Positions 1 through 53,440 of a DNA stretch of 64,000 bases are shown here, in pieces. The notes beneath the pieces were generated by a model. The model had not been told where the DNA came from and ran no database searches. It was given only the letters and a program-made list of their open reading frames with translations. Origin of the DNA: Trichoplax sp. H2 (Eukaryota); NCBI GenBank assembly GCA_003344405.1, contig NOWV01000103.1, forward strand, positions 124,001 through 188,000, read 5' to 3'. Position numbers and translations under genes: made by a program. Each line of letters begins with the position of its first letter. Position 1 is the first letter of the stretch.

Positions 1-457
1 TTGCTCAAAAATGATGTCATTCCGACTGCTCACCAAGTGGTGTGTAGCCGGTCTTACAGTGTACAGTGTACAGTACGCTATACTGTAGCGCATCACCAAA
101 GAAAAATCCTGATTGTGCGCAATGATGCTGTCCAACCATCCTTCCCACGCAGACTCAGTACTGGCCTACCTCAACCGGCTCTACTGTCTTTGATTCAAAC
201 TAAGCAAACATGAACAAACTTGTTTATGTTTTACTCTTCTCTAGTATTGTACTGCACGTTTCTACTGTACCGATACACAGTACAGTACACACTATAGGTG
301 AAAATCAAACGTTGATCTGGACCGTAAATCAATCATGCCCTGGCCCACGAAATGTTTGCTAATAGCTTGTTGGCGCCAAAGTTAACTTTAAAAATAAAGT
401 TAAATTATTAATTAATTGCAGTTGTACCCTGGTAAAAAATCAACTACTTGCCTACTT

Positions 458-3400
458 ATGGCTCATCATGATGAAGAGATCAATCGAATTGCCGATGAAG
501 ATTATGGCCAAGAGAAAAATAGAGAAGTTTTCTTGCCCTATCGATGCCACTCCTTAGGTGATATTACTAACTACAAAAGTCATCCGGGAAATGTTGTCGA
601 AGCTGCGTCTTTAGCTGCTCAAATCCTGCCGCCTACTAACTATCCGCTAAAAGATGCCTTACCACCACATTTAATACTTGATTGTAAATTAAGTGATTTG
701 CAATTAGAAGGTATCTTACATGCATGCCAACGCCATCAGATGATCTTGCCGAAGGGTGCTAGAGCTGGATTCTATCTTGGAGATGCTGCTGGAGTAGGCA
801 AAGGAAGACAAATTGCTGGTATCATTATTAATAATTATGTCCGTGGCCGACGAAAACATTTATGGTTTAGCACATCTCACGATTTAAGGATAGATGCTGA
901 AAGAGATTTAAAAGATATAAATTGCTTTATTAAGGTCATTGATGGTTGTCAAGAGTTAGATCGTGAGACCAGAGTTGCAGGCATGTCTCCACAAGTCAAA
1001 GATGGCATTCTATTTAATACTTATGCTACGTTGATATCATCAGGTCAACGTGGTTTCAATCCAACCCATACACGAGGTAGTCGAATACAACAAATTCTGG
1101 ATTGGTGTGGCGATAATTTTAATGGTTGCTTAATCTTTGATGAGTGCCATAAAGCAAAACAATTTATACCCGGCAATGAAGCTGCCAGTACCAAAGCTGC
1201 AGTTGCTGCAATTGCCTTACAAAGGCAATTGCCTAAGGCTCGCGTTGTCTATTGCAGCGCTACCGGTGTCACTAATGTTAAGAATATGGCATTTATGGAA
1301 AGACTTGGACTATGGGGTGATAATACAGCCTTTAAAAATGTTGAAAATTTTATCCAAGCCATGACCACACGTGGTCTAGGCGCATCAGAAATGTTAGCCA
1401 TGGAAATGAAAGCTGCAGGAATGTATGTTTCAAGAGGTCTAAGCTTTGAATCTGCTGAATTTCACACTGTTGAAATTAATTTAACCGATGAACAAATTAG
1501 AGTGTATAATTTATCTGCTCGAGTCTGGCAACAATTAGCTGAAGCAATTAAAAAAGCAATCAGCCACACTAAAAGTTCCGCAAGTCGTATATGGACTGTT
1601 TATTGGAGTTGCCATCAACGATTTTTTAAACAACTTTGTATGTCTTTAAAAGTACCAGCCATTGTACGGGAAGCCAAAGCTGCTCTGGATGAAGGATATT
1701 GTGTTGTTATCGGTTTGCAAACCACTGGAGAAGCTAGCTTAGACAATGAAATTACTCGCCAAGGGAACAACACACATGGCTATATCTCCACTGCGAAGGA
1801 AATTTTAGTACGGTTTATTTTACAACATTTTCCAATCGAAGAGAAAACATCCAAAGGCACTAAAATTAATGCATGGTGTAAAAATGCTGCCGATGCCTTA
1901 CTACAATTCATCGATAATATTAATTTACCGAATTGCTCCTTAGATGAGTTAATTCAACAATTGGGTGGTACTAATTGTGTCGCTGAAATGACTGGACGCC
2001 GTGGCCGAATAGTTTGTATCAATGGTAGTTCAACGCCTGTCTATCAACTTCGTGATACTGATAGTAGTAGCGATCATGGCTTAGAAAGTCTCAATGTAAG
2101 GGAAAAGAATCTATTCATGCAAGGTAAAAAATTAATTGCTGTCTTATCAGATGCCGCTAGCACTGGTATATCATTACATAGCGATACACGTGTAGCTAAT
2201 AATCGACGTCGTATTCATATTACTATGGAGTTACCATGGAGTGCTGAAAAAGCTGTACAACAACTTGGTCGATCTCATCGTTCAAATCAATCTAGTGCGC
2301 CAATCTATAAATTAATGACTACAAATGTAGGTGGTGAGAAAAGATTTGTTGCTGCAGTTGCTCAAAGATTACTCTCATTAGGTGCATTAACAAGAGGTGA
2401 TCGTCGGGCAGCAACTGGCGCAGATTTCTCCGAATTTAATTTTAATACAAGTTATGGCCGTTCAGCTTTAAAATTGATGTATTCGTACATTCAAAGAGGT
2501 GTCCTTTGCCCAAATATCACTTTCTCAAGTATATTACAAGCAAGTACACTGGATGATAGTAGTTACACCATCTCTCAATTTTATATCGATATGAAACATT
2601 GTCTACTCGATATGGGACTAACTGCCTCCCTCGAAGCTCGTGTACCTGAAAAAGATGCAACAGATGTACAGCGATTTCTAAACCGTATCCTTGGTCTGAC
2701 TATCGAAAGACAAAATTTAATTTTTTCTTACTTTTGTCAATGTCTAACAACTAGTATTGAACGAGCTAAAAAAGAAGGGAAATACAACGAAGGTGTAACC
2801 GACATCAAAGGAACATCAATTGTTATGGTTGATTCACCAAAAGAGATTTTTACTGAAGTTAAACGAGGTAATGTTTCTACGAAGCAAGTTACGTTATGTG
2901 TTGATAGAGGAATCGATTGGCCAACAGTATTAAAATTATACCATGAACAAGCGACGGATCCATTAGATGGGTTTTATTGTTCTCGTAATCGTTATTTTAA
3001 CCGAAAATTTTATCTTTTTGCGCTGTATAAGGCTCATCTAGATGTTTTTAGCGTCGTTCGGCCTAATACCGGATTTTCGTCTTATATGGAAAATAGTAAG
3101 GATTTGTTACAAAAATATCACAAGTTAGATCTTAGTGATGCTGAAAATGGATGGAAAGAACAGTATAACTCTACAGAGCTGGCATGTATTCATGGTGGAT
3201 CATGCAAGTTCGGTTCATACTGTACTGTTGGGATTCGAATTAATCGTGTACATATTATCTGTGGTGGTATTATACCAATGTTGTCATTACTGGAGTCGAT
3301 GTTAACTAACTGCGCCAGAAAGTATAACTTAAGCAAGGAACAACAAACACTGAGAATAGTACGAGTTCAGCTCGATGACGGTAGAAAGATTGTTGGACTT

Positions 3401-4108
3401 CGTTATCCGGAACCAATTATTAGCGAAGTGACGACAGTCTTAAAATGGGCTGTACAACAGCGGTTGTTAAAAAATCAGGGTTTGCTTGACTCTGCGACAC
3501 GTTTACCAACTGTTTTGCAAGAAGGTAGTTGTTATGCACTTGCTGATGCTGTCTTGTTAACAGTGGTTGGTGGTGCTAAACTAATTACTGAAGATGACGA
3601 TCATGTTAACGAACGTCTGCTTAAACGAGCTTTTACTAAACCATTATCTATTCGAAATTATTTTACTACTCAACAAAATAACCTTCATGGACAAGAGAAT
3701 AAGCAAGGTGAAGAATTAAACGATAATCAAAATAATAGCAGCAATAATGACGATATAGTCATCATCTCTGATGTTACGAACGTATCGCCTACTCATCGTA
3801 GCATGAATGGCAGCAGTATACCGGTACGTAATGGAAAGCAAAAAGCGGGAAATAAGAGACATAATAAAGATATACATACTGACTCAAATAATACTAAAAG
3901 ACATAGACAGCTGAAAGTTTTTGATGCCTTTCAACAAAATGGACAAAATAAGACTGCCAATAGTGATGAAGATTCTGCAGACGAATCCGACGATAGTTTA
4001 TTGATCTACTGCCCTGTATGTAATCACTGTTTTCCATCAAATACAAGCAATCAAATTATAAATCAACATTTAGATCAATGTTTAGCAGGAAATGCCGATG
4101 ACAGTTAA
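458..4108 (+). CDS. SBNO: Strawberry notch (SBNO)-family SF2 helicase-like protein, single coding exon (~1216 aa from the first ATG at 458), with a C-terminal UBZ-type zinc finger
   Basis: Open ORF with SBNO hallmarks: HPGNVVEAASLA, LSDLQLEGILHAC, Walker A GDAAGVGKGRQIAG, DECHKAK, YCSATG, VAEMTGRRGR, AASTGISLHSD, motif VI QQLGRSHRSNQ, GALTRGDRRA, FLNRILGL. The ORF-track start (TTG at 416) looks like a splice acceptor (ttgcag, 416-421). Confidence 0.93.
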   Translation: MAHHDEEINRIADEDYGQEKNREVFLPYRCHSLGDITNYKSHPGNVVEAASLAAQILPPTNYPLKDALPPHLILDCKLSDLQLEGILHACQRHQMILPKGARAGFYLGDAAGVGKGRQIAGIIINNYVRGRRKHLWFSTSHDLRIDAERDLKDINCFIKVIDGCQELDRETRVAGMSPQVKDGILFNTYATLISSGQRGFNPTHTRGSRIQQILDWCGDNFNGCLIFDECHKAKQFIPGNEAASTKAAVAAIALQRQLPKARVVYCSATGVTNVKNMAFMERLGLWGDNTAFKNVENFIQAMTTRGLGASEMLAMEMKAAGMYVSRGLSFESAEFHTVEINLTDEQIRVYNLSARVWQQLAEAIKKAISHTKSSASRIWTVYWSCHQRFFKQLCMSLKVPAIVREAKAALDEGYCVVIGLQTTGEASLDNEITRQGNNTHGYISTAKEILVRFILQHFPIEEKTSKGTKINAWCKNAADALLQFIDNINLPNCSLDELIQQLGGTNCVAEMTGRRGRIVCINGSSTPVYQLRDTDSSSDHGLESLNVREKNLFMQGKKLIAVLSDAASTGISLHSDTRVANNRRRIHITMELPWSAEKAVQQLGRSHRSNQSSAPIYKLMTTNVGGEKRFVAAVAQRLLSLGALTRGDRRAATGADFSEFNFNTSYGRSALKLMYSYIQRGVLCPNITFSSILQASTLDDSSYTISQFYIDMKHCLLDMGLTASLEARVPEKDATDVQRFLNRILGLTIERQNLIFSYFCQCLTTSIERAKKEGKYNEGVTDIKGTSIVMVDSPKEIFTEVKRGNVSTKQVTLCVDRGIDWPTVLKLYHEQATDPLDGFYCSRNRYFNRKFYLFALYKAHLDVFSVVRPNTGFSSYMENSKDLLQKYHKLDLSDAENGWKEQYNSTELACIHGGSCKFGSYCTVGIRINRVHIICGGIIPMLSLLESMLTNCARKYNLSKEQQTLRIVRVQLDDGRKIVGLRYPEPIISEVTTVLKWAVQQRLLKNQGLLDSATRLPTVLQEGSCYALADAVLLTVVGGAKLITEDDDHVNERLLKRAFTKPLSIRNYFTTQQNNLHGQENKQGEELNDNQNNSSNNDDIVIISDVTNVSPTHRSMNGSSIPVRNGKQKAGNKRHNKDIHTDSNNTKRHRQLKVFDAFQQNGQNKTANSDEDSADESDDSLLIYCPVCNHCFPSNTSNQIINQHLDQCLAGNADDS

Positions 4109-7100
4109 TTCTGCGTCTGTAATGAGTAAAGAAAAATTTGCCAACAACGTATTTTTCATAAACCATAATATTTGTAAAATATGGACTTCTAGATAGGATA
4201 ACCTAAAAATATGCTCGTATAGCAAATGATATTGAAACCTTGAGAAATCATATTGATAAAGATTGAAATCTTGTTCTAAAATCCTTGCACTGATATGATG
4301 TATGTACTTGAAGGTAAAGGTAGTCTATGTTAATACCGTAGTAGCGAAATTACTCCCTAATTATAGGACGAAAGCAATTTGTTATCATGTTGTATAAATG
4401 ATACCGTATGCGCACACGTATATACACAAGTCAGGATATAAATTCTTTCAATGCAGTAATGGAACTAAACTTTCACCTGAAAAAGCGTTTAATAGAATTC
4501 TGTAGGTGATAGTTTTACCTAATACTTTTTGGGAAAAAAAGGGCGTAAAACTCCAGGCATGGCTGTCCTTCATTTTTATTATCCTCCTTCATGAATATCA
4601 ACTTATTTAATAGATGCATCTAAAATATTATAGTATATGTGTATGTATTATGATCAATGTCTGCACTCTGACAATAAAATATTTTCCAGTTTCCATCACG
4701 AAATTAGTAATCGTCAAAGTTATATTTAATAGAAAATTAACTCGTAATTTATTTGAAATTTAAAAATTAGATATTGCGCTAGAATCCTTATTAACTTCCT
4801 TATAACCGCCAAAAATTTTAAGAAGTGCTCACATTCTGTTACATGATAATGGAACTATAAAGAAGAAAAGCGGCAGAATCCTACGACTTAACTTTTATGA
4901 GTCATCTCAGGAGAGAATGCTGAGCACCTTGCAGCGTGGAACAATTTCCTATTGATTTAGGAAGTCTACTATTATTATTTGAGCATCTCTGCATATCCCA
5001 TGGAATAGTACGCACACATATACTGTAGTAGTCAGTAAAGTTGTGAGAACATCCTGAATACGTATGGCAATATAGAATTCAGTATGCTTTATCAACTTGG
5101 TCTGTTCGTCAGTGATTGATGACAACTGGGAGGTAATATAAAATTGTTAGTACTGTAGCAAGTTTATAAATTAACTGCAAACTAAGGTGAATTCTTTCAT
5201 CCTAAAATAACCATGCATAACGTGCTTCCATTTTAGAAGCTGTATTTATAACTTATATCGAATACAGTAAAATGAATGCATTACGTGAATCCTACTGTAC
5301 GCCGTTAACAGAAAGCAACTACGTACTGCATAAATCCTTTCTTTCAAAACAACATATATATGCTGATACATTTTCTCCTTTGCCTTTATAATAGCTCTAG
5401 GAGCAACTTATATTCATTAATCTTTCAACATTGAATAATAAGTTACAAAGGTTCGAGATCAAAAGATAGTTAAAGCAGTAGTGATAGTTATATTAAAGTT
5501 GGATTGTATCAAGTCGGCACAGTACTTGGGAGTATAATAATTATCATACTATACAACAAAACGTTAATTCCTTTACTTTCAGTCTTCATTTTAACCAAAA
5601 GAAAATACGGGTAGGAGATTATTCGCTGCTTATACTGTACTATAGTATTGTCGGAGATAACCGGTCGTATCTAGTAGTCTACTATATATTAGTACATAAC
5701 GTTGATTTTACTTTTGATCTCAATCTTAATCAAAATCCAATCATTGAAGTGCGGTATATAAAATTAACAATCAATTGATTGATCCAATATCAAATTATTC
5801 TCATCCATAAAATAAAAATATAGAAAATTTGGTTAATTTCTTATTCGCTTCGCTGAGGGTAGGGAATAAATTAGGATTGAAACACGTAATATATTGTAAT
5901 TGCTTGCGATATCTCATTAGTCAACAAGCATAGAATAGGATAAGTGAAAGATAATTATGTCTTAATACTCATATGAGTATACGGTACCGGTAGTTACCCT
6001 ATCAAGTCGTAAATGCTATAAATTAGAATAGCCATCAAAGTATAACTTCTTAGAATACAGAGTATCCTAAACAGCGCACTTGGCTATTATCTCTATGTTG
6101 TACAAACGGTTAATAATACTGCCGCTAAATCTTTGCGAAAACATTTATTGAAATATAAATGATTGAAAGCTCCTTAAATTCTTTATAGCCCAAAATCGAA
6201 TGTATTTGCACTAAATATGGAGATACTTGTCCCTAAACAGTAGGAATAGACAAAGCAAATGATGTATAAAACAAATATATAAAGCTTATTTTTGAAATTA
6301 TTATTTATTGCAGACTTATAAGAAAGCCGTGAATAGGTGAAATTCAATATCATAATTGCATAAATTTTCTGAACTGTCTATCATAATGATTTAATTTGTT
6401 TACTAGTTGAATATTATCATCTTTGCAACGGTGCACCTATGGTTGATTTATTCTTTAACTCTCAGCTGGGTTTAATGACCTTAGCTTTAATTGGTCTAAT
6501 TTGACTCATATAAAGTAATCTCATCAGTTCAATTTCGTAGGTTCGTGATGATCACTTTTGTACCCATATCGCGTATAAGCTTATTTTACTATATACCTGT
6601 TGCAAATTAATTTAGCTTTATTTTTGTTCAAACAGCACATATGAATAATTTTTTACTCTATAGTTATGCCATTGATAAATTACATATAGCTACGATCTTG
6701 CCTTCAGTATACTATAAGTTATCCATTATGGTAGAGAAGTAGTTTCTTTATAATCAACAGTTTTAAACTAAAGCAAACAATAGTTCCTTTTATGTCTATG
6801 CAAAAATCTTAATTTAAAATTTATTATAAGCTATTCTAATCAAGAATCAATAAGTACTATAATGGATTTATGAATAATCTATTCTTTGTATGCAAATGAC
6901 AACTGAAAACAATTGCTACAATTGCTACTTATTGACTAATTTTATTAGAGGTGATTGATGATCTCGTCCTGTTTTCTCTTCTTTTCATTCTTTTACGCAA
7001 TTATATTTTTTGTCCCATCACCATCGTCATCCATGACGTTTATCCTTATAAAGCATATCTGTCTTAACTGTGCCCACATAGTAACATTTTAACACTTTTG

Positions 7101-9361: not shown

Positions 9362-12361
9362 ATGGCTGCTACAATGAATAGTGAATTAATTCTTGAAGCG
9401 AAAAGATTGAGTCCAAGACCTCCATCGAATCGCAACCAATCAAGAATGCCCACTAGAGGAAAACGGAATCAAAAGCAGACGCCCAATAAGGCATCAAATT
9501 TCATGAATGAAAGGTACGTTCAAAATCAATCTCCAGATCATGTTGCAAAGTAAATAAAACATAAATTCTTTTCATAACTGTCTTATTGCGCAACAACTTT
9601 AGTTTAGAACTATTTATTATCATAGCAACTACATTTACTACTAATAATAGATCTAGAAACTAGAGGTACAGAAAAGGAATCAATACAACTTAATTACAGC
9701 CGGAATATAATTGATGAAGCTAGTTAACATTGTAGTACTATATGGTCATGCGTTATTGTCTAGGGCCTTTATTTCCTTAAGCAAGTTTCCATTTTGGTTA
9801 ATTATTAAATTATTACACTTATATTTTAGAGCTCTTAATGAAGTTGCAATGTGTCAGCTGTATCAACAAAATCAGACAGATTCTATCTCTCATGAATCAA
9901 AATTATCATGTCAAGAAGATTCAGATCGTATCCAGACTCCGTTCACTAATGGCAATTACCCCACAAATACCACCATTACAAGCACTAAAGTATTTGCTGA
10001 AAATCCTATAGAGTCAAATCAATCAGTTGATGCTAATAATAACAATGAAAAGGATACTAATCCTATTTCAATATTGAGTACAAATTCTGTAGAATCTAAA
10101 GAACCTTTAACCGCAACTACCCATGAAATACTGAGGAATAATGTTTATGATAAGAAGCCAAGTACAAGTCCTGCAATATATAATCAGGAAGTCATGATTT
10201 CGTTTAGTGATGATCACGATAATAATATGAATAGTATTTATTTAAATAAACCAAACACTAGCCCTGTCAATTCTCGTCTAGCGCAAAAGCAAGAAGTAAT
10301 GAACGATAGCGTAAGTTCAGTTACGGAGCAAAGCTCAAACGTTTTTTATTTAGCCTCTAATTATAAGATGATCTTTACGTTGAAAAATACTGATGCAGAT
10401 TAGGTTCAATATAATGTCCTATAGACTTTATACGATAACTCCATCTCTTGCTATATTATCACTAGATAACGTACTGATACTTTAATGGAATAAATAGAAA
10501 TTTGCTTTAAAACATTAAAACAGTACCGTAATACAAATAATAATATGACGAGTATTTGTAGGGTTTGCTGTTATTGAGATATATGTCGATTTCATTCGTT
10601 TAATAATTCTAGATAGAGATCGATTACAAGATAGTTGTGTTTAATTGTCTCACTCATTAATTTTTTGTTCTTTGCTGTTAGTTCATTTTACCGAAAAACT
10701 CATTTGGTAATCACCTCTTCTATTTACCGGCACTATGTAAGTCCGTTGATCTTCAGCCGAATTACAATCGGTCTCGACAGTCGCAGAAAACTCGAGAGGG
10801 TCGGATACCATCACAAAATCAAGCAAATACTACAAAAGATCTTTCCGACCATTACAATTATGAATTACATCAGCAAAGATGGGTTTTAACCGGGAATATA
10901 GATCGCTATTCATTAGGAACATTAAAATTCGGCGATAAATCCAAGGAAAAAGCGAAATCGTCGCCTAAATATCCCGTTCACGGTACTCCAACTCGGAAAC
11001 ATCAACAATCTATGACTAGCAATTATTATAATAACCTTTACCAATATTATGCTGCGAATCAATCGCAATCTGCCATTAACCAGTATCTATCTCGGCAATA
11101 TCATCGTAATAATGCTTATCGCTCAAATAGAAAGGTACAGCATCATAAGCGAAAAAAGGACAAAAATTATGATAATGATACAGTTAATCCGTGGATCTAT
11201 GATAGCCCTACTGCTACTCCAACAACACTGGATGATAGAAGTATCAGCCGACGAAGCCAAATTCCAGATGATGACAGCGATTACGTTAAGAAAACTTCTC
11301 AGATGAGAGTACGGTCCAATACCAATAACAGCAATATAACGCTGTCTATTAATCCTAGTAGGAGCCATTCTAATGACGAGGTATTTACACATCCTATACC
11401 AAATGTTAATTATGATGGTGACATTAGTCATGATAGTTTTCATCGTGCAGTAACAACAACGCCTGTTGATGAGGATAATGATCAGCCAAGTAAACAAGAA
11501 GAAGAGGTACCAATATTGGCAAGCCCTATACCACCTTCTATAACAGATATAAATAGTAACAGTGTAGCTATCGATAGCCAGAATAATATTCTACTACCTG
11601 ATAAACCTGGATCACCCCTACCTGTTATTCAAGGGAAAAGCAGTAACAATTTACATCATCCTCAATTGCTGACTGATTTATCGCAATCTTTAACTACATC
11701 AGCTAGTAGTGATAAGATAACATCATTATCGCTGGGGAAAATAAAGCTAAGTGATCAAGGTAAATCGAAGAGTACATCATCTATCCGTTATAATCAGACC
11801 TTACCAAAGTCGACAATACGTAAAGGAATTAATGGAATGACTGAGAAACAGAAGTATCAAGATACCCAATCTGAGAATAAGGAAGAAATATTATCATCAA
11901 CGCTAATACACAGTAACGAGTTTAGGAATGGATCCCCCAAACGAGAGCCATTACCTGATGATTTAATTATACTAAACTTGACTAAGAAAATGCAGGATAT
12001 AGAATCTAAAAATGAAAAATCGCTATCATCGTCTCGAAGTCAGCAACTTTTGTGGAATACGTCTCGAATTAATTCCTATTCTAGGCAGATTGAAGCAATG
12101 TCAAATTCAGAAGCTTATTGTAGTCCGCGGCTTGTAGGCCGAGAAATTGATCAGGTATTAGGAGAATGTTTAACATCACAACAAGTGTTAGCATCAAGCA
12201 GCGATTTCGGTAATGTTGCAACAGTTCCATTTGCATCGAGACCTACAACAAAAGTGGTTACACGTAATCATGATTCATTAAATCATTCTCATCCTAATGA
12301 TACTGTGATCCATGAGACTAGTTTAGTTTCCGTTAAAGGAAATAAGCTAACATATTTGTAG
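9362..12361 (+). CDS. Uncharacterised S/N/T-rich, probably disordered protein (~770 aa); exons 9362-9513, 9830-10310, 10682-12361
   Basis: Three ORF pieces join in frame through canonical sites (AG|gtacgt...tttag|A, phase 2; AGC|gtaagt...gttag|TTC, phase 0). The 10682-12361 frame is open through the 11012 ORF. No recognisable domain. Confidence 0.7.
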
Positions 12362-13950: not shown

Positions 13951-15126
13951 GTAAACCGGTGATATATCATGATGTATCGCTTTCTGCGTAGTATTATATA
14001 ATGGATAAGCATCTATGCGAAGTAATATAATTAATATCATGTACTGTCTATGATGTAAAGAGACAAGTACATACGTATACAGTATAACGAATGTAGGACT
14101 GTAGGTCTAATTTATTATAAAATAATATGCATGCAACATTTCGCTTGAAATAGTGCTCATAACTATGGAAAGACAGATAGAATTCAATAATATTATTACT
14201 TAATTAATTAATAAAAAGTAAAGGAATTACATATTACGCCAAGTGTAACAAGCGGCTTTGTACTAGTTATCCCACTCCCACCCTATAATTGCTGTAGAAT
14301 TGATACCCTTGCATAATCATTGAGCACGAATTGCGCCCCAAAATATCTAATGACAGTTATTGTATGTTGTCGTTGCAAGTAAATACGAAAATAAACTCAA
14401 TAGACGTGAACCTTGAATAGAACAACGGATTTTATGACTAGTACTAATATAATTGATACAGTAGTATGTAGGCCATGTTGATTGCCTCCAGTCGAATAGC
14501 TAAGGGAGCCATGATGATCGCTGTCGCCTTGTACAGTACTGACTATTGGAGCCAGTTGCTTCCTGTCATGCTCAATTGCTCATACGCTGCCTCTAGCAAG
14601 ATGGCCCAATACTGTAGGGTTATTACGATAGTACAGTAAGATAGTATTACCTGATTAGCATCCATCTACAGTACTTGTACTGTACTGTACCACGGCGCCT
14701 CACTGGTCTTTACCATGGTGGTACAGTATAATCCAGTACCGTACAGTACTGTGGATAGCGTACTGTAAAGTAGCGCAGTTACAGCACGGTACTTCACGTA
14801 CTGTTCCCGTAAGGTCACGTGCAAAGCGAAGTACCACTTTTGAAGACATCATAATTATCGTCCGGTGTTGATGGAAAGGGTGGATATTGTGGGAAAATTG
14901 TTGGTCTAGTGATAGAAGGATATAACCCATCCATATTACATGATTAGAGTACTTTGGAGCGATTGATTATAGTATAATAGATAGAAAACGATTGACAGCC
15001 ATACCAGACATTGGCTTATAAAAAGAGTAATGTACTCATGCCGGATGTTGTAGGGGGCATAGCTTGGTAAACTACCTCAAATACTTTCATCAACTGTTCC
15101 GATCGTTATCTGTAGATATCAATAAA

Positions 15127-51072: not shown

Positions 51073-51840
51073 GATGAAAGTTCAGTCGCTAATGTAAAAA
51101 AAGACAAGAAGTCAATGCTAAAATAGGGAAATTGATCCATATTAAATAGTAACTAGTTTAAATTGGCAAGTTATTTTCACCTGCAGTAGGTTGAAAAAGA
51201 GAATATTGCAAGGAGCGAAGTTTTATGTGTCTTACCCTGACCTGTTAGAAAAGGAAGAGAACGGTAAAACAGTTTGCAGATCTTTTTATTAACTGGAGGT
51301 ACAGTACAATACCCTGCAGTACTACAGTACAGCCGACCATGGCACTACCAGGTACTAAAGTACAGTACAGACTGTACAGTACTCTATGCAGCTAACGTAC
51401 AGTACTACAGTAGTATACTGTAGCATGCTACAGTTCGTTTGCTGGTTTGTTTACACAGTACTGTACTGTACTGTAGGTACAGGTTAAGGTTTTGTTTACA
51501 TCGATGATGCTTTGAAGGCCTTTCCAATTGGAACATGGCGTGTACACAAATCTATAGAAAAGTTCACGAATCGAACAGACTGTAGTGTAGCCAACTTGTG
51601 CAACAGGAATAAAATAGTTCAACCAGTTCAAGAAGGGGGTCAGCAAGAACGCCTTCACACTGAGTCAGCTGATGAATTTCGACTCCCCTGGTTGCTTGGC
51701 TTCATCTTTTAAAAGTATTATTGAGTTGGGTACGTAGAGTGTACCGAAGAGAAAGAAAACTTTACCCCTATGATACGGTAGACCCTGTGACTCTATAACA
51801 AATCTTGATGGGATCAATTTCAATGTGTTTTTTTTTTGCA

Positions 51841-52785: not shown

Positions 52786-53440
52786 ATGGAAGTTAAATGA
52801 TGTTGCATTTGCAAAAGCGGCTACAGCAGACGACACCCATTCACTGATGACAACCATAACGATGATAAAAATATCAATAATCAATCATTATTGATCAATT
52901 ATAACGTATAGCTAGTAAACTCTCACGTCAGTCAAGTGTCATTAAAGGCAGAGTGCGATATTGATTAAAAATAAGATAAGATCATGAAACATTGGCTATC
53001 CAGTATTCAATGCCAATGTTCATGATCTGCACACTTGATAAAGCGCTACTTCAATCCGAAAACTATCGATTTCTATCGTTGATGATCGGAAGGAAGCGAA
53101 GTGATCGTGAATTTGCAGTAGCAACTTTTAAAGATAGCTAGCAGACTGCCATTCGCCTTTTTGTTGTTATGATATATTCTTGCTCATAATATTGTCATAA
53201 TAATGATGAGGTCATGCTACAGTACTGTACAGTATATTAACATACGGCTATCGATTATATTATACAGTACAGTACAGTATACTGTATTGCGATATTAAAG
53301 TATTATTATTATTATTATTACATTAATTTTCCCTTATTATTATTATTATGACTATACCAAGGTTATACTGTACTGTACAGTATGTACTATAATTATGCAT
53401 CATAATAATTAGGCAATGCAAGATTGATGATATAATTTGG

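What the first reader, a model, noticed from the sequence alone, without database searches (positions are those of the whole stretch)
3641..4084. Strawberry-notch helicase-like protein with a PIP-like/PIP-like/UBZ tail: a candidate reader of ubiquitinated PCNA
Seen: after the SBNO core comes a low-complexity tail with PLSIRNYF (3641-3664), basic NLS-like patches, QLKVFDAF (3908-3931), an acidic patch, and a terminal CPVC-x16-HLDQC finger (4010-4084). Established: C-P-x-C...(I/L)N-x-H-L-D-x-C is the Rad18-type UBZ4 ubiquitin-binding finger. PIP box + UBZ at a C-terminus is the layout of replication-stress proteins such as Pol kappa and SPRTN. As far as I recall, characterised SBNO1/2, fly sno, worm let-765 and plant FGT1 are transcription/chromatin regulators without this tail. 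Inference: a distinct SBNO paralog that works at stalled forks or in DNA repair. Both PIP motifs are non-canonical.
Basis: partly seen in the sequence, partly recalled or inferred. Interest (0 to 1): 0.85.

Follow-up and report, generated by a model that had tools for sequence, protein, structure and literature searches.

The report
SBNO ATPase with ubiquitin-reading tail
A Trichoplax strawberry-notch-type ATPase belongs to an old, overlooked branch of that family whose flexible tail ends in a Rad18-type ubiquitin-binding zinc finger and carries PCNA-box-like motifs, which points to a role at ubiquitin-marked chromatin, perhaps at stalled replication forks.

Summary

- **Finger:** it is a UBZ4-type finger. 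A profile of 42 orthologous C-termini hits solved RAD18, WRNIP1, Pol kappa and FAAP20 UBZ domains (E 7e-8 to 9e-6), and the AlphaFold model superposes on them.
- **Conservation:** the terminal finger is in 72 of the 120 best homologs, from animals, prasinophyte algae and other protists. Core green algae carry a UBA domain there instead, so ubiquitin binding looks like the selected function.
- **First PIP-like motif:** it is in 105 of 120 homologs and gapless in 48 of 48 aligned.
- **Second motif:** it recurs in 34 of 72 finger-bearing homologs (0.8 expected) but never has the paired aromatics of a PIP box.
- **Phylogeny:** trees put all tail-bearing proteins in one clade (SH-aLRT 99), apart from Drosophila SBNO-type and PHD/FGT1-type proteins, which lack the tail.
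- **Expression:** RNA contigs cover the tail colinearly.

PCNA and ubiquitin binding remain untested. The first motif also abuts a confidently folded helix, so it may be structural. This is a new variant of known kinds. Vertebrate SBNO1/2 could not be fetched.

The parts
416..4556 (+). Transcribed region as seen in assembled RNA-type contigs; unspliced
   Evidence: run X1 gives one 4141-nt contig equal to window 416-4556, with no joints and no loose ends. Runs X7 and X9 (RNA-Seq on record) give pieces covering 2909-3888, 3809-4013 and 3951-4479. X1 and X2 are only guessed to be RNA.
458..4108 (+). Single-exon CDS, 1216 aa plus stop (TRIADDRAFT_54670)
   Evidence: 100% identity, 100% coverage to P0003.
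581..1510 (+). ATPase lobe 1, Pfam AAA_34 (aa 42-351)
   Evidence: E 2.2e-122.
1940..2803 (+). ATPase lobe 2, Pfam Helicase_C_4 (aa 495-782)
   Evidence: E 6.4e-104.
2915..3238 (+). SBNO alpha/beta domain (aa 820-927)
   Evidence: E 4.4e-19.
3605..3667 (+). Clade-specific segment (aa 1050-1070): a helix that AlphaFold folds with high confidence, followed by motif 1
   Evidence: gapless block in 48 of 48 aligned homologs; pLDDT 96 and 87 for aa 1047-1066, dropping to 58 for aa 1067-1076; absent from Drosophila-type and PHD-type paralogs.
3641..3664 (+). Motif 1, PLSIRNYF. PIP-like, with hydrophobic position 4 and aromatic positions 7 and 8 but no Gln at position 1
   Evidence: 104 of 120 homologs by pattern plus one more by eye. 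F1069 is invariant.
3749..3772 (+). SUMO-interaction-motif-like stretch DDIVIISD (aa 1098-1105); a weak feature
   Evidence: a comparable hydrophobic core with acidic or Ser flanks in 23 of 105 tails, not fixed in position.
3827..3907 (+). Basic, NLS-like patches (aa 1124-1150)
   Evidence: orthologous linkers are 11-40% Lys+Arg, with a K/R cluster directly before motif 2.
3908..3931 (+). Motif 2, QLKVFDAF (Q-x-x-h-x-x-x-F)
   Evidence: 34 of 72 finger-bearing homologs, 0.8 expected. Position 7 is never aromatic.
3962..3997 (+). Acidic patch SDEDSADESDDS (aa 1169-1180)
   Evidence: Not conserved in orthologs, whose corresponding stretch is basic.
4010..4081 (+). C-terminal CCHC UBZ4-type zinc finger (aa 1185-1208)
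   Evidence: Ligands and N1202/D1206 are invariant.

Best explanation
The gene encodes a Snf2-like SF2 ATPase of the strawberry-notch family. It belongs to an ancient, separate subfamily defined by its C-terminal tail.

The tail acts as a targeting device. A terminal UBZ4-type zinc finger binds ubiquitin, and a conserved [ST]-[ILM]-x-x-[FY]-F motif close to the core binds a chromatin-bound partner. Together they bring the ATPase to ubiquitin-marked sites on DNA.

The leading candidate site is ubiquitylated PCNA at stalled replication forks. That is the same two-handed reading used by the Y-family polymerases, SNM1A, Spartan and ZRANB3.

Shown here:
- the domains and their folds;
- conservation of the motifs;
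- the separate clade;
- expression of the tail.

Inferred:
- ubiquitin binding, about 0.8 likely;
- a DNA-damage or replication-stress role, about 0.6;
- PCNA as the partner, about 0.4.
For: Finger identity:
- The last 45 aa alone score 25.4 bits against Pfam UBZ_FAAP20 (cut-off 25), and 28 of 42 orthologous C-termini match it.
- A profile of those 42 hits solved ubiquitin-binding UBZ domains: RAD18 7.4e-8, WRNIP1 1.9e-7, Pol kappa 3.4e-6, FAAP20 8.9e-6.
- AlphaFold gives a beta-beta-alpha finger with pLDDT about 90.
- Its best Foldseek matches are UBZ-ubiquitin complexes (FAAP20 rmsd 0.8 A, RAD18, TAX1BP1, NDP52, WRNIP1), though with E only 0.4-1.3 because the domain is small.

Selection on ubiquitin binding:
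- The finger is terminal in 72 of 120 best homologs.
- In core chlorophytes a UBA domain sits there instead. Fifteen have precomputed Pfam UBA hits and four more have sub-threshold hits.
- The eight UBA rows in the tree form one clade, SH-aLRT 99, nested among finger-bearing algae.

Partner motif:
- Motif 1 is in 105 of 120 homologs and gapless in 48 of 48.
- Two orthologs (P0026, P0071) have a fully canonical PIP box at that position. One (P0058) has one at the motif 2 position.

Context:
- The review PMC3714560 (passages read) lists PIP+UBZ or PIP+NZF as the layout of known readers of ubiquitylated PCNA and calls the combination 'a strong indicator'.
- The whole-protein model is most like Swi2/Snf2 dsDNA translocases: RapA, ISW1, CSB, CHD4, INO80 (E about 1e-9).
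- The tail is present in RNA contigs.
Against: - No binding test of any kind was possible. Neither PCNA nor ubiquitin of a eukaryote could be obtained.
- Motif 1 lacks the Gln at position 1 in Trichoplax and in most orthologs.
- Motif 1 follows directly on a segment folded at pLDDT 87-96, and a short helical turn covers aa 1065-1068. It could therefore be an intramolecular latch or part of the fold.
- Motif 2 has a non-aromatic residue at position 7 in all 34 carriers, so it is not a canonical PIP box.
- UBZ-type fingers also act away from PCNA. TAX1BP1 and NDP52 are among the fold matches, and two studies found Spartan foci to be Rad18-independent.
- Fifteen of the 120 homologs keep motif 1 but show neither UBZ nor UBA.
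- The characterised relative FGT1 works in transcriptional memory with chromatin remodelers.
Confidence: 0.42

Rival explanations
1. The finger does read ubiquitin, but the target is another ubiquitylated chromatin client, such as ubiquitylated histones, stalled RNA polymerase II or a repair complex. Motif 1 is then not a PCNA box. It would be an intramolecular latch on the ATPase, or a docking site for a different partner of FF-type motifs.
For: - Confident folding up to aa 1066, with the aromatic pair at the edge of the folded part.
- No Gln at position 1 of motif 1, and motif 2 is never di-aromatic.
- The closest solved folds include CSB and the ISWI/CHD/INO80 remodelers, which act on polymerase or nucleosomes.
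- FGT1 acts with BRM and ISWI at promoters.
- UBZ-type fingers serve several pathways.
Against: - The segment carrying motif 1 is missing from the Drosophila-type and PHD-type paralogs, whose cores end before it. The SBNO fold therefore does not need it.
- Some orthologs have a fully canonical PIP box at this very position.
- The sequence-level UBZ matches are RAD18, WRNIP1, Pol kappa and FAAP20, which I recall as replication-stress or crosslink-repair proteins.
Confidence: 0.33
2. The terminal CCHC finger is a generic zinc finger, binding nucleic acid or protein, with no ubiquitin role. The tail motifs would be nuclear-import or structural elements of an ordinary transcriptional co-regulator.
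For: - The full-length protein scores below the Pfam cut-off for UBZ_FAAP20 (17.3 bits against 25).
- The ortholog profile also picks up C2H2 and RING fingers at weaker E-values.
- Foldseek E-values for the finger are only 0.4-1.3.
Against: - The top profile hits are all ubiquitin-binding UBZ domains, and they share the N-x-H-[ILV]-D-x-C-L helix motif with RAD18 and WRNIP1 (alignments).
- The top ten fold matches are all ubiquitin-binding fingers, eight of them entries solved with ubiquitin.
- Replacement by a UBA domain in core green algae is hard to explain unless ubiquitin binding is the function.
Confidence: 0.1
3. The tail is an annotation or assembly artefact: a read-through of non-coding DNA, or a part that is spliced out.
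For: The tail is low-complexity, and the gene is unusual in being a single 3.65-kb exon.
Against: - RNA-type contigs from four runs in three studies cover the tail colinearly with no joints, and one contig spans 416-4556.
- The tail's motifs are conserved in dozens of species.
Confidence: 0.02

Closest known systems
Strawberry notch family: Drosophila sno, vertebrate SBNO1/2, C. elegans let-765
   Same: Same three Pfam core domains, AAA_34, Helicase_C_4 and SBNO alpha/beta. About 41-43% identity to Drosophila SBNO-type proteins over the best local alignment.
   Different: The Drosophila representatives fall outside the tail clade (SH-aLRT 99 in two trees). They end right after the core, with no motif 1 and no finger.
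Arabidopsis FORGETTER1 (FGT1) and PHD-type algal relatives
   Same: SBNO core. NCBI names many orthologs of the Trichoplax protein 'FORGETTER 1-like'.
   Different: FGT1 is defined by a PHD finger (PMC5040591, passages read). Pfam adds two N-terminal FGT1 zinc ribbons, seen in Chara P0128. The Trichoplax protein has neither. PHD-type proteins lack the tail and lie outside the clade. Volvox africanus has one of each type, so the two types are paralogs.
ZRANB3, an SNF2 translocase that reads polyubiquitylated PCNA
   Same: Analogous layout: a Snf2-like ATPase plus a PCNA-box-type motif plus a ubiquitin-binding zinc finger (table in PMC3714560; fold likeness to Snf2 ATPases).
   Different: Different ATPase family: no Pfam SNF2 match. 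Different finger type: UBZ4 CCHC rather than NZF. No APIM or HNH domain was seen. The likeness is one of working principle, not of descent.
PIP+UBZ readers: Pol eta, Pol kappa, SNM1A, Spartan/SPRTN; and UBZ4 proteins RAD18, WRNIP1/Mgs1, FAAP20
   Same: The finger matches their UBZ domains by sequence profile and fold. The layout is a PIP-like motif and a UBZ in one disordered C-terminal tail.
   Different: The catalytic module is an SBNO ATPase, not a polymerase, nuclease, protease or ligase. The PIP-like motifs are non-canonical in Trichoplax.
CSB/ERCC6
   Same: Among the best fold matches of the core. From recollection, not checked here: CSB also needs a C-terminal ubiquitin-binding domain.
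   Different: A true Snf2-family member with a different ubiquitin-binding module, and no sequence relation to the tail.

Membership tests
Strawberry notch (SBNO) ATPase family | AAA_34 P-loop lobe, Helicase_C_4 lobe and SBNO alpha/beta domain, in that order | tested here: met
   408, 348 and 69 bits, all far above the curated cut-offs.
sno/SBNO1-type clade | Groups with Drosophila SBNO-type proteins in a phylogeny | tested here: not met
   the 42 tail-bearing rows form one clade (SH-aLRT 99), and the 5 Drosophila rows lie on the other side. Vertebrate and nematode members were not in the tree.
FGT1 type | PHD finger between the ATPase lobes, and N-terminal FGT1 zinc ribbons | tested here: not met
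   One search finds none in P0001. One search finds them in Chara P0128, and a PHD in Volvox P0140.
UBZ4 (Rad18-type) ubiquitin-binding zinc finger | C-x2-C ... H-x3-C ligands with the N-x-H-[ILV]-D-x-C helix motif | tested here: met
   Invariant in 48 and 42 sequences. Aligned to RAD18 and WRNIP1.
UBZ4 (Rad18-type) ubiquitin-binding zinc finger | Significant profile match to known UBZ domains | tested here: met
   RAD18 7.4e-8, WRNIP1 1.9e-7, Pol kappa 3.4e-6, FAAP20 8.9e-6; 25.4 bits against a cut-off of 25 for the isolated 45-mer. The full-length protein is below the cut-off.
UBZ4 (Rad18-type) ubiquitin-binding zinc finger | Beta-beta-alpha fold superposable on solved UBZ domains | tested here: met
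   rmsd 0.8-1.8 A to the FAAP20, RAD18 and WRNIP1 UBZ domains. Foldseek E-values are weak (0.4-1.3) for this 45-aa model.
UBZ4 (Rad18-type) ubiquitin-binding zinc finger | Binds ubiquitin | not testable with these tools
   No eukaryotic ubiquitin sequence was available for a complex prediction. This needs a bench assay.
Canonical PIP box | Gln at position 1 | tested here: not met
   Motif 1 has Pro, and most orthologs have Pro, Lys or Arg. Motif 2 does have Gln.
Canonical PIP box | Aliphatic residue at position 4 and aromatic residues at positions 7 and 8 | tested here: inconclusive
   Motif 1 meets it (I, Y, F), in 48 of 48 aligned homologs. Motif 2 fails at position 7, in all 34 carriers.
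Canonical PIP box | Binds the PCNA interdomain-connector pocket | not testable with these tools
   No PCNA of Trichoplax or any eukaryote could be obtained.
Swi2/Snf2 family | Pfam SNF2-related domain | tested here: not met
   One search lists no SNF2 family. Only the fold is alike. It may work like a Snf2 translocase but is not a member.

The most novel reading that the evidence does not exclude
The tail-bearing SBNO proteins are a previously unrecognised genome-maintenance ATPase as old as the last eukaryotic common ancestor. On this reading they are a dsDNA translocase recruited to ubiquitylated PCNA by a PIP-like box plus a UBZ4 finger (a UBA domain in core green algae). They would do a ZRANB3-like job at stalled forks. 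They went unnoticed because, as far as the named hits show, the gene is missing from vertebrates, insects, nematodes, fungi and land plants, which supply nearly all model organisms.
Probability: 0.3. Interest if true: 0.8.

Novelty: new variant of a known kind. Interest (0 to 1): 0.62.

Why it matters
Readers of ubiquitylated PCNA decide how a cell gets past DNA damage. The known list holds polymerases, a nuclease, a protease, an AAA+ ATPase and one Snf2 translocase. An SBNO-type ATPase with the same kind of tail would add a new enzyme class to that list.

It would also give the strawberry-notch family, so far known only as transcriptional co-regulators, a second and possibly older line of work.

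Three further points make it useful:
- It shows that 'FORGETTER 1-like' is a misleading database name for these animal proteins.
- The UBZ-to-UBA swap is a clean natural experiment pointing at ubiquitin binding.
- The clade exists in tractable organisms, such as cnidarians, sea urchins, volvocine green algae and Micromonas/Ostreococcus, where the idea can be tested.

If the tail turns out to read another ubiquitin mark, it still links an SBNO remodeler to ubiquitin signalling.

Tried and rejected
**Searches that found nothing**
- Whole protein against PDB sequences: no hit at E <= 0.01, so no solved SBNO structure helps.
- The 37-aa stretch around motif 1, given as a window reference, against PDB sequences: no hit at E <= 10.
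- The 155-aa tail alone against 1.84 billion representative proteins: only 3 hits.
  - One is a low-complexity match in a 3245-aa adhesin-like protein.
  - One is a 285-aa protein with UBZ-like fingers.
  - One is a 555-aa WLM-domain protease with a C-terminal finger.
  - The tail as a whole therefore has no detectable relatives outside the SBNO clade.
- ESM Atlas: only generic SBNO-family clusters and no structure, so it added nothing.

**Steps that could not be run**
- A profile of the motif 1 block for a PDB search could not be built, so the step was dropped.
- The window's own genome is not held. I could not ask whether Trichoplax also has a sno/SBNO1-type paralog.
- Vertebrate SBNO1/2, let-765 and land-plant FGT1 never came within the 120 listed rows. 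I saw no query that would pull them up without being swamped by insect or plant clusters, so the third homolog search was left unused.
- No complex prediction was sent, because neither PCNA nor ubiquitin of a eukaryote was available as a session sequence.

**Ideas rejected**
- A SUMO-interaction motif as a conserved tail element. It is present in Trichoplax, but a comparable motif is found in only 23 of 105 tails and at no fixed place.
- The acidic patch before the finger as a conserved feature. Orthologs are basic there.

**Literature**
These searches found no paper linking the family to UBZ, PCNA or ubiquitin binding:
- 'strawberry notch' + 'UBZ': 0 papers.
- 'SBNO' / 'ubiquitin-binding' / 'PCNA': none of the 20 listed mention SBNO.
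- A five-term search: none of the 12 listed mention strawberry notch.
- 'strawberry notch' + 'PCNA': 10 papers, all incidental judging by title and abstract start.

Supplementary files were not opened.
Full report
**What is there**

Window 416-4108 is one open frame on the + strand. From the ATG at 458 it gives 1216 residues. That protein is letter for letter the NCBI protein 'uncharacterized protein TRIADDRAFT_54670 [Trichoplax adhaerens]', so the window is placozoan.

Pfam finds the three strawberry-notch core domains: AAA_34 at aa 42-351, Helicase_C_4 at 495-782, and the SBNO alpha/beta domain at 820-927.
- PLSIRNYF at 3641-3664;
- two basic patches;
- QLKVFDAF at 3908-3931;
- an acidic patch;
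- CPVC-x15-HLDQC at 4010-4081, then eight more residues and the stop.

**Is the tail expressed?**

I laid four public runs on window 1-5200.
- One run, whose RNA status is only a guess, holds a single 4141-nt contig equal to window 416-4556.
- Two runs recorded as RNA-Seq hold pieces covering 2909-3888, 3809-4013 and 3951-4479.
- There are no joints and no loose ends.

The gene is therefore a single exon, and the tail is part of the message. These are assembled contigs, so they show presence and colinearity, not expression levels or exact ends.

**The finger**

- In the full-length protein, the match to Pfam UBZ_FAAP20 is below the curated cut-off (17.3 bits against 25).
- In the isolated 45-residue C-terminus it just passes (25.4 bits).
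- The tail's best PDB sequence hit is the first UBZ of DNA polymerase kappa (E 0.0065), followed by TAX1BP1, FAAP20 and WRNIP1.
- I aligned 42 orthologous C-termini (41 chosen from the 71 other finger-bearing homologs, plus the window). The profile hits RAD18 UBZ at 7.4e-8, WRNIP1 UBZ at 1.9e-7, Pol kappa at 3.4e-6, FAAP20 at 8.9e-6 and TAX1BP1 at 1.3e-5. C2H2 and RING fingers score weaker.
- The printed alignments show the shared C-P-x-C ... N-x-H-[ILV]-D-x-C-L pattern.
- Of the 42 members, 28 match UBZ_FAAP20 on their own at E <= 0.01.
- AlphaFold2 on this alignment gives two short strands and a helix, with pLDDT about 90 over the finger.
- The first ten Foldseek matches in the PDB are all ubiquitin-binding zinc fingers, eight of them entries solved with ubiquitin (FAAP20 at rmsd 0.8 A, TAX1BP1, RAD18, NDP52, WRNIP1). 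The E-values are only 0.4-1.3, as expected for so small a domain.

From recollection, the conserved Asp of the helix (D1206 here) is the residue whose mutation abolishes ubiquitin binding in RAD18 and WRNIP1. I did not verify that in a paper.

**Conservation**

The homolog search scored 7998 candidates and found 2950 with E <= 0.001. I saw the best 120.

Named ones come from:
- sponges, cnidarians, echinoderms, amphioxus, molluscs, annelids, nemerteans and bryozoans;
- green algae and oomycetes;
- EukProt records whose labels I did not resolve.

None of the named ones is a vertebrate, arthropod, nematode, fungus or land plant. About half carry no name.

Of the 120, 72 end in C-x2-C...N-x-H-[ILVM]-D-x-C. 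The other 48 break down as follows:

| Group | Count | Source |
|---|---|---|
| Precomputed Pfam UBA hits at the C-end | 15 | |
| Sub-threshold UBA hits | 4 | |
| Lack even motif 1 and look like truncated models | 13 | |
| Breaks off inside the finger | 1 | |
| Keep motif 1 but show neither UBZ nor UBA | 15 | |

Two of those last 15, P0072 and P0076, were rescanned with no result.

Motif 1 is the most conserved tail element. The pattern [KRQ]-x-...-[TSNK]-[ILVM]-x-x-[FYW]-[FYW] after the core is in 104 of 120, plus one more seen by eye. In a 48-row alignment the block V-x-x-K-x-x-x-[KR]-A-x-x-P-x-T-[ILM]-x-x-[FY]-F has no gap in any row. Those 48 rows were 47 homologs with complete tails, picked by me, plus the window.

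F1069 and the finger residues C1185, C1188, N1202, H1204, D1206 and C1208 are invariant.

Motif 2 (Q-x-x-[ILVM]-x-x-x-[FYW], usually K-[KR]-x-K-Q-S-[SN]-[IL]-x-x-x-F) lies within 50 residues upstream of the finger in 34 of 72 finger-bearing homologs. Shuffling predicts 0.8. All the named carriers are animals.

**A separate clade**

The search for longer relatives brought in three further groups:
- Drosophila proteins that NCBI names 'strawberry notch homolog 1';
- PHD-finger forms from Chara, Volvox and Pleodorina. Chara's also has the two Pfam 'FORGETTER1 zinc ribbon' domains;
- many giant bacterial fusion proteins with an SBNO module.

I built trees on the core (957 columns) from 64 rows that I picked out of the 245 proteins in hand: 42 tail-bearing, 5 Drosophila, 4 PHD-type, 4 other eukaryotic and 9 bacterial as outgroup.

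Under both LG+G4 and the LG+C20 mixture model, the 42 tail-bearing rows are one clade with SH-aLRT 99. All Drosophila and PHD-type rows lie outside it. These were 'quick' searches without bootstraps, and three outside rows have long branches.

The outside proteins end just after the core. They have no motif 1 and no finger.

Volvox africanus has a UBA-tailed member (P0118) and a PHD-type member (P0140). Edaphochlamys debaryana likewise has two (P0119, P0146). So these are paralogs that coexist in one genome.

The eight UBA-tailed rows form one clade nested among finger-bearing algae. This amounts to a single swap of one ubiquitin-binding module for another.

**Structure of the whole protein**

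AlphaFold2 on residues 17-1216 with the 48-row alignment gives mean pLDDT 79.6 and pTM 0.77. The tail from about aa 1073 to 1180 is below 50, meaning disordered. The finger recovers to about 84.

Confidence is 96 and 87 for aa 1047-1066. That covers the helix ERLLKRA and the start of motif 1. It falls to 58 over aa 1067-1076, with a one-turn helix at 1065-1068.

So motif 1 sits at the very edge of a segment the model treats as folded. A lower-confidence linker (aa about 1013-1046, 10-residue block means 58, 49, 61 and 76) comes before it. I could not inspect coordinates, so I cannot say whether the aromatic pair is buried.

The best solved-structure matches of the whole model are Swi2/Snf2 dsDNA translocases: RapA, ISW1, CSB, CHD4, SNF2h, INO80, ALC1 and SMARCAD1, at E about 1e-9 to 1e-8. 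Brr2 comes next. There is no Pfam SNF2 match.

**How it most likely works**

The shown facts are:
- a Snf2-like ATPase core;
- a disordered, basic, nuclear-looking tail;
- a terminal UBZ4-type finger under strong selection, replaceable by UBA;
- an almost universally kept [ST]-[ILM]-x-x-[FY]-F-[KR] motif. Except for Gln at position 1, it fits the PIP consensus Q-x-x-[ILM]-x-x-[FY]-[FY] (consensus recalled). It is fully canonical in two orthologs (P0026, P0071) at that position, and in one ortholog (P0058) at the motif 2 position.

The review 'Readers of PCNA modifications' (PMC3714560, passages read) tabulates the known readers:
- Y-family polymerases (PIP with UBZ or UBM);
- SNM1A and Spartan (PIP+UBZ);
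- Mgs1/WRNIP1 (UBZ);
- ZRANB3 (PIP, APIM, NZF).

My best reading is that the tail tethers the ATPase to ubiquitylated PCNA, in the manner of ZRANB3.

My odds:
- about 0.8 that the finger binds ubiquitin;
- about 0.6 that the protein works in replication stress or DNA repair;
- about 0.4 that PCNA is the partner of motif 1.

**What speaks against this**

- Nothing here tests binding.
- Motif 1 may be an intramolecular latch.
- Motif 2 is never di-aromatic, so I would not call it a PIP box. Its partner is unknown.
- UBZ-type fingers also serve autophagy receptors. The same review reports that two groups found Spartan recruitment to be Rad18-independent.
- FF-type motifs are also used by other partners (recalled: Rev1- and Mlh1-interacting motifs).
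- The only characterised relative, FGT1, acts in transcriptional memory with BRM and ISWI.

The main rival is therefore a ubiquitin reader aimed at another chromatin client.

**Novelty**

No paper in the searchable library links strawberry notch, SBNO or FGT1 to UBZ, PIP boxes or PCNA. The FGT1 paper's passages on domains mention only the two helicase domains and the PHD finger. Supplements were not seen.

Databases already hold these proteins as 'uncharacterized', 'FORGETTER 1-like' or 'UBA domain-containing'. The gene itself is therefore not new. What appears to be new is the recognition of a tail-defined, ancient SBNO subfamily with a ubiquitin-reading end. I rate it a new variant of known kinds.

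**Limits**

- Vertebrate SBNO1/2, let-765 and land-plant FGT1 were not in the tree.
- The window's genome is not held, so a second Trichoplax SBNO gene could not be looked for.
- A profile search with the motif 1 block could not be built.
- No complex prediction was possible, for want of PCNA and ubiquitin sequences.

Noticed in passing
window 68-75, 263-270, 280-287 and 47 further sites, e.g. clusters at 14531-14748, 51299-51471, 53223-53382: The octamer TACTGTAC occurs 50 times on both strands, against 2.5 expected from shuffles (largest shuffle 7). Most sites lie in clusters outside the long ORFs. Three copies lie 130-350 bp upstream of the SBNO transcript start. This could be a dispersed repeat or a promoter-type element.
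   Followed up: no
window 458-4108: A 3.65-kb coding sequence without any intron. The 64-kb window has only four stop-free frames of 150 codons or more, and the RNA contigs are colinear. Whether orthologs have introns, which would bear on a retrogene origin, was not examined.
   Followed up: partly
window 9711-10403 (+) and 10682-12361 (+): Two further long open frames of 230 and 559 codons with no Pfam match at E <= 0.001.
   Followed up: partly
window 3749-3772 (aa 1098-1105, DDIVIISD): A SUMO-interaction-motif-like hydrophobic core with acidic and Ser flanks. Comparable motifs occur in 23 of 105 tails of homologs. They are often the very C-terminus in forms that lack a finger (e.g. P0079, P0081; also P0088, which has a finger). 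Several prasinophyte linkers hold a V-D-L-T core.
   Followed up: partly
P0125 (555 aa): One of only three proteins in 1.84 billion representatives that match the tail. It is a WLM-domain (Wss1-like) metalloprotease with a C-terminal finger of the same kind at aa 525-551. From recollection, that family repairs DNA-protein crosslinks.
   Followed up: partly
P0136-P0245: About 100 of the 120 listed longer relatives (2,100-5,000 aa) carry no eukaryotic name. The few that are named are bacterial, and several sit on contigs of only 8-60 kb. They carry the SBNO ATPase module with ArdC, primase, methylase and other modules, typical of mobile elements. Nine of them served as outgroup here.
   Followed up: no
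P0128 (Chara braunii): The FGT1-type protein model carries a Ty3-type retrotransposon (RT, RNase H, integrase) between the Helicase_C_4 and SBNO alpha/beta domains. This is probably an insertion or a gene-model fusion.
   Followed up: no
window 718-4422: 18 single-base differences and one 1-base deletion (at 4205, in the 3' UTR) between the window and contigs of the four runs. These look like strain or allele variation, and none disrupts the frame.
   Followed up: no
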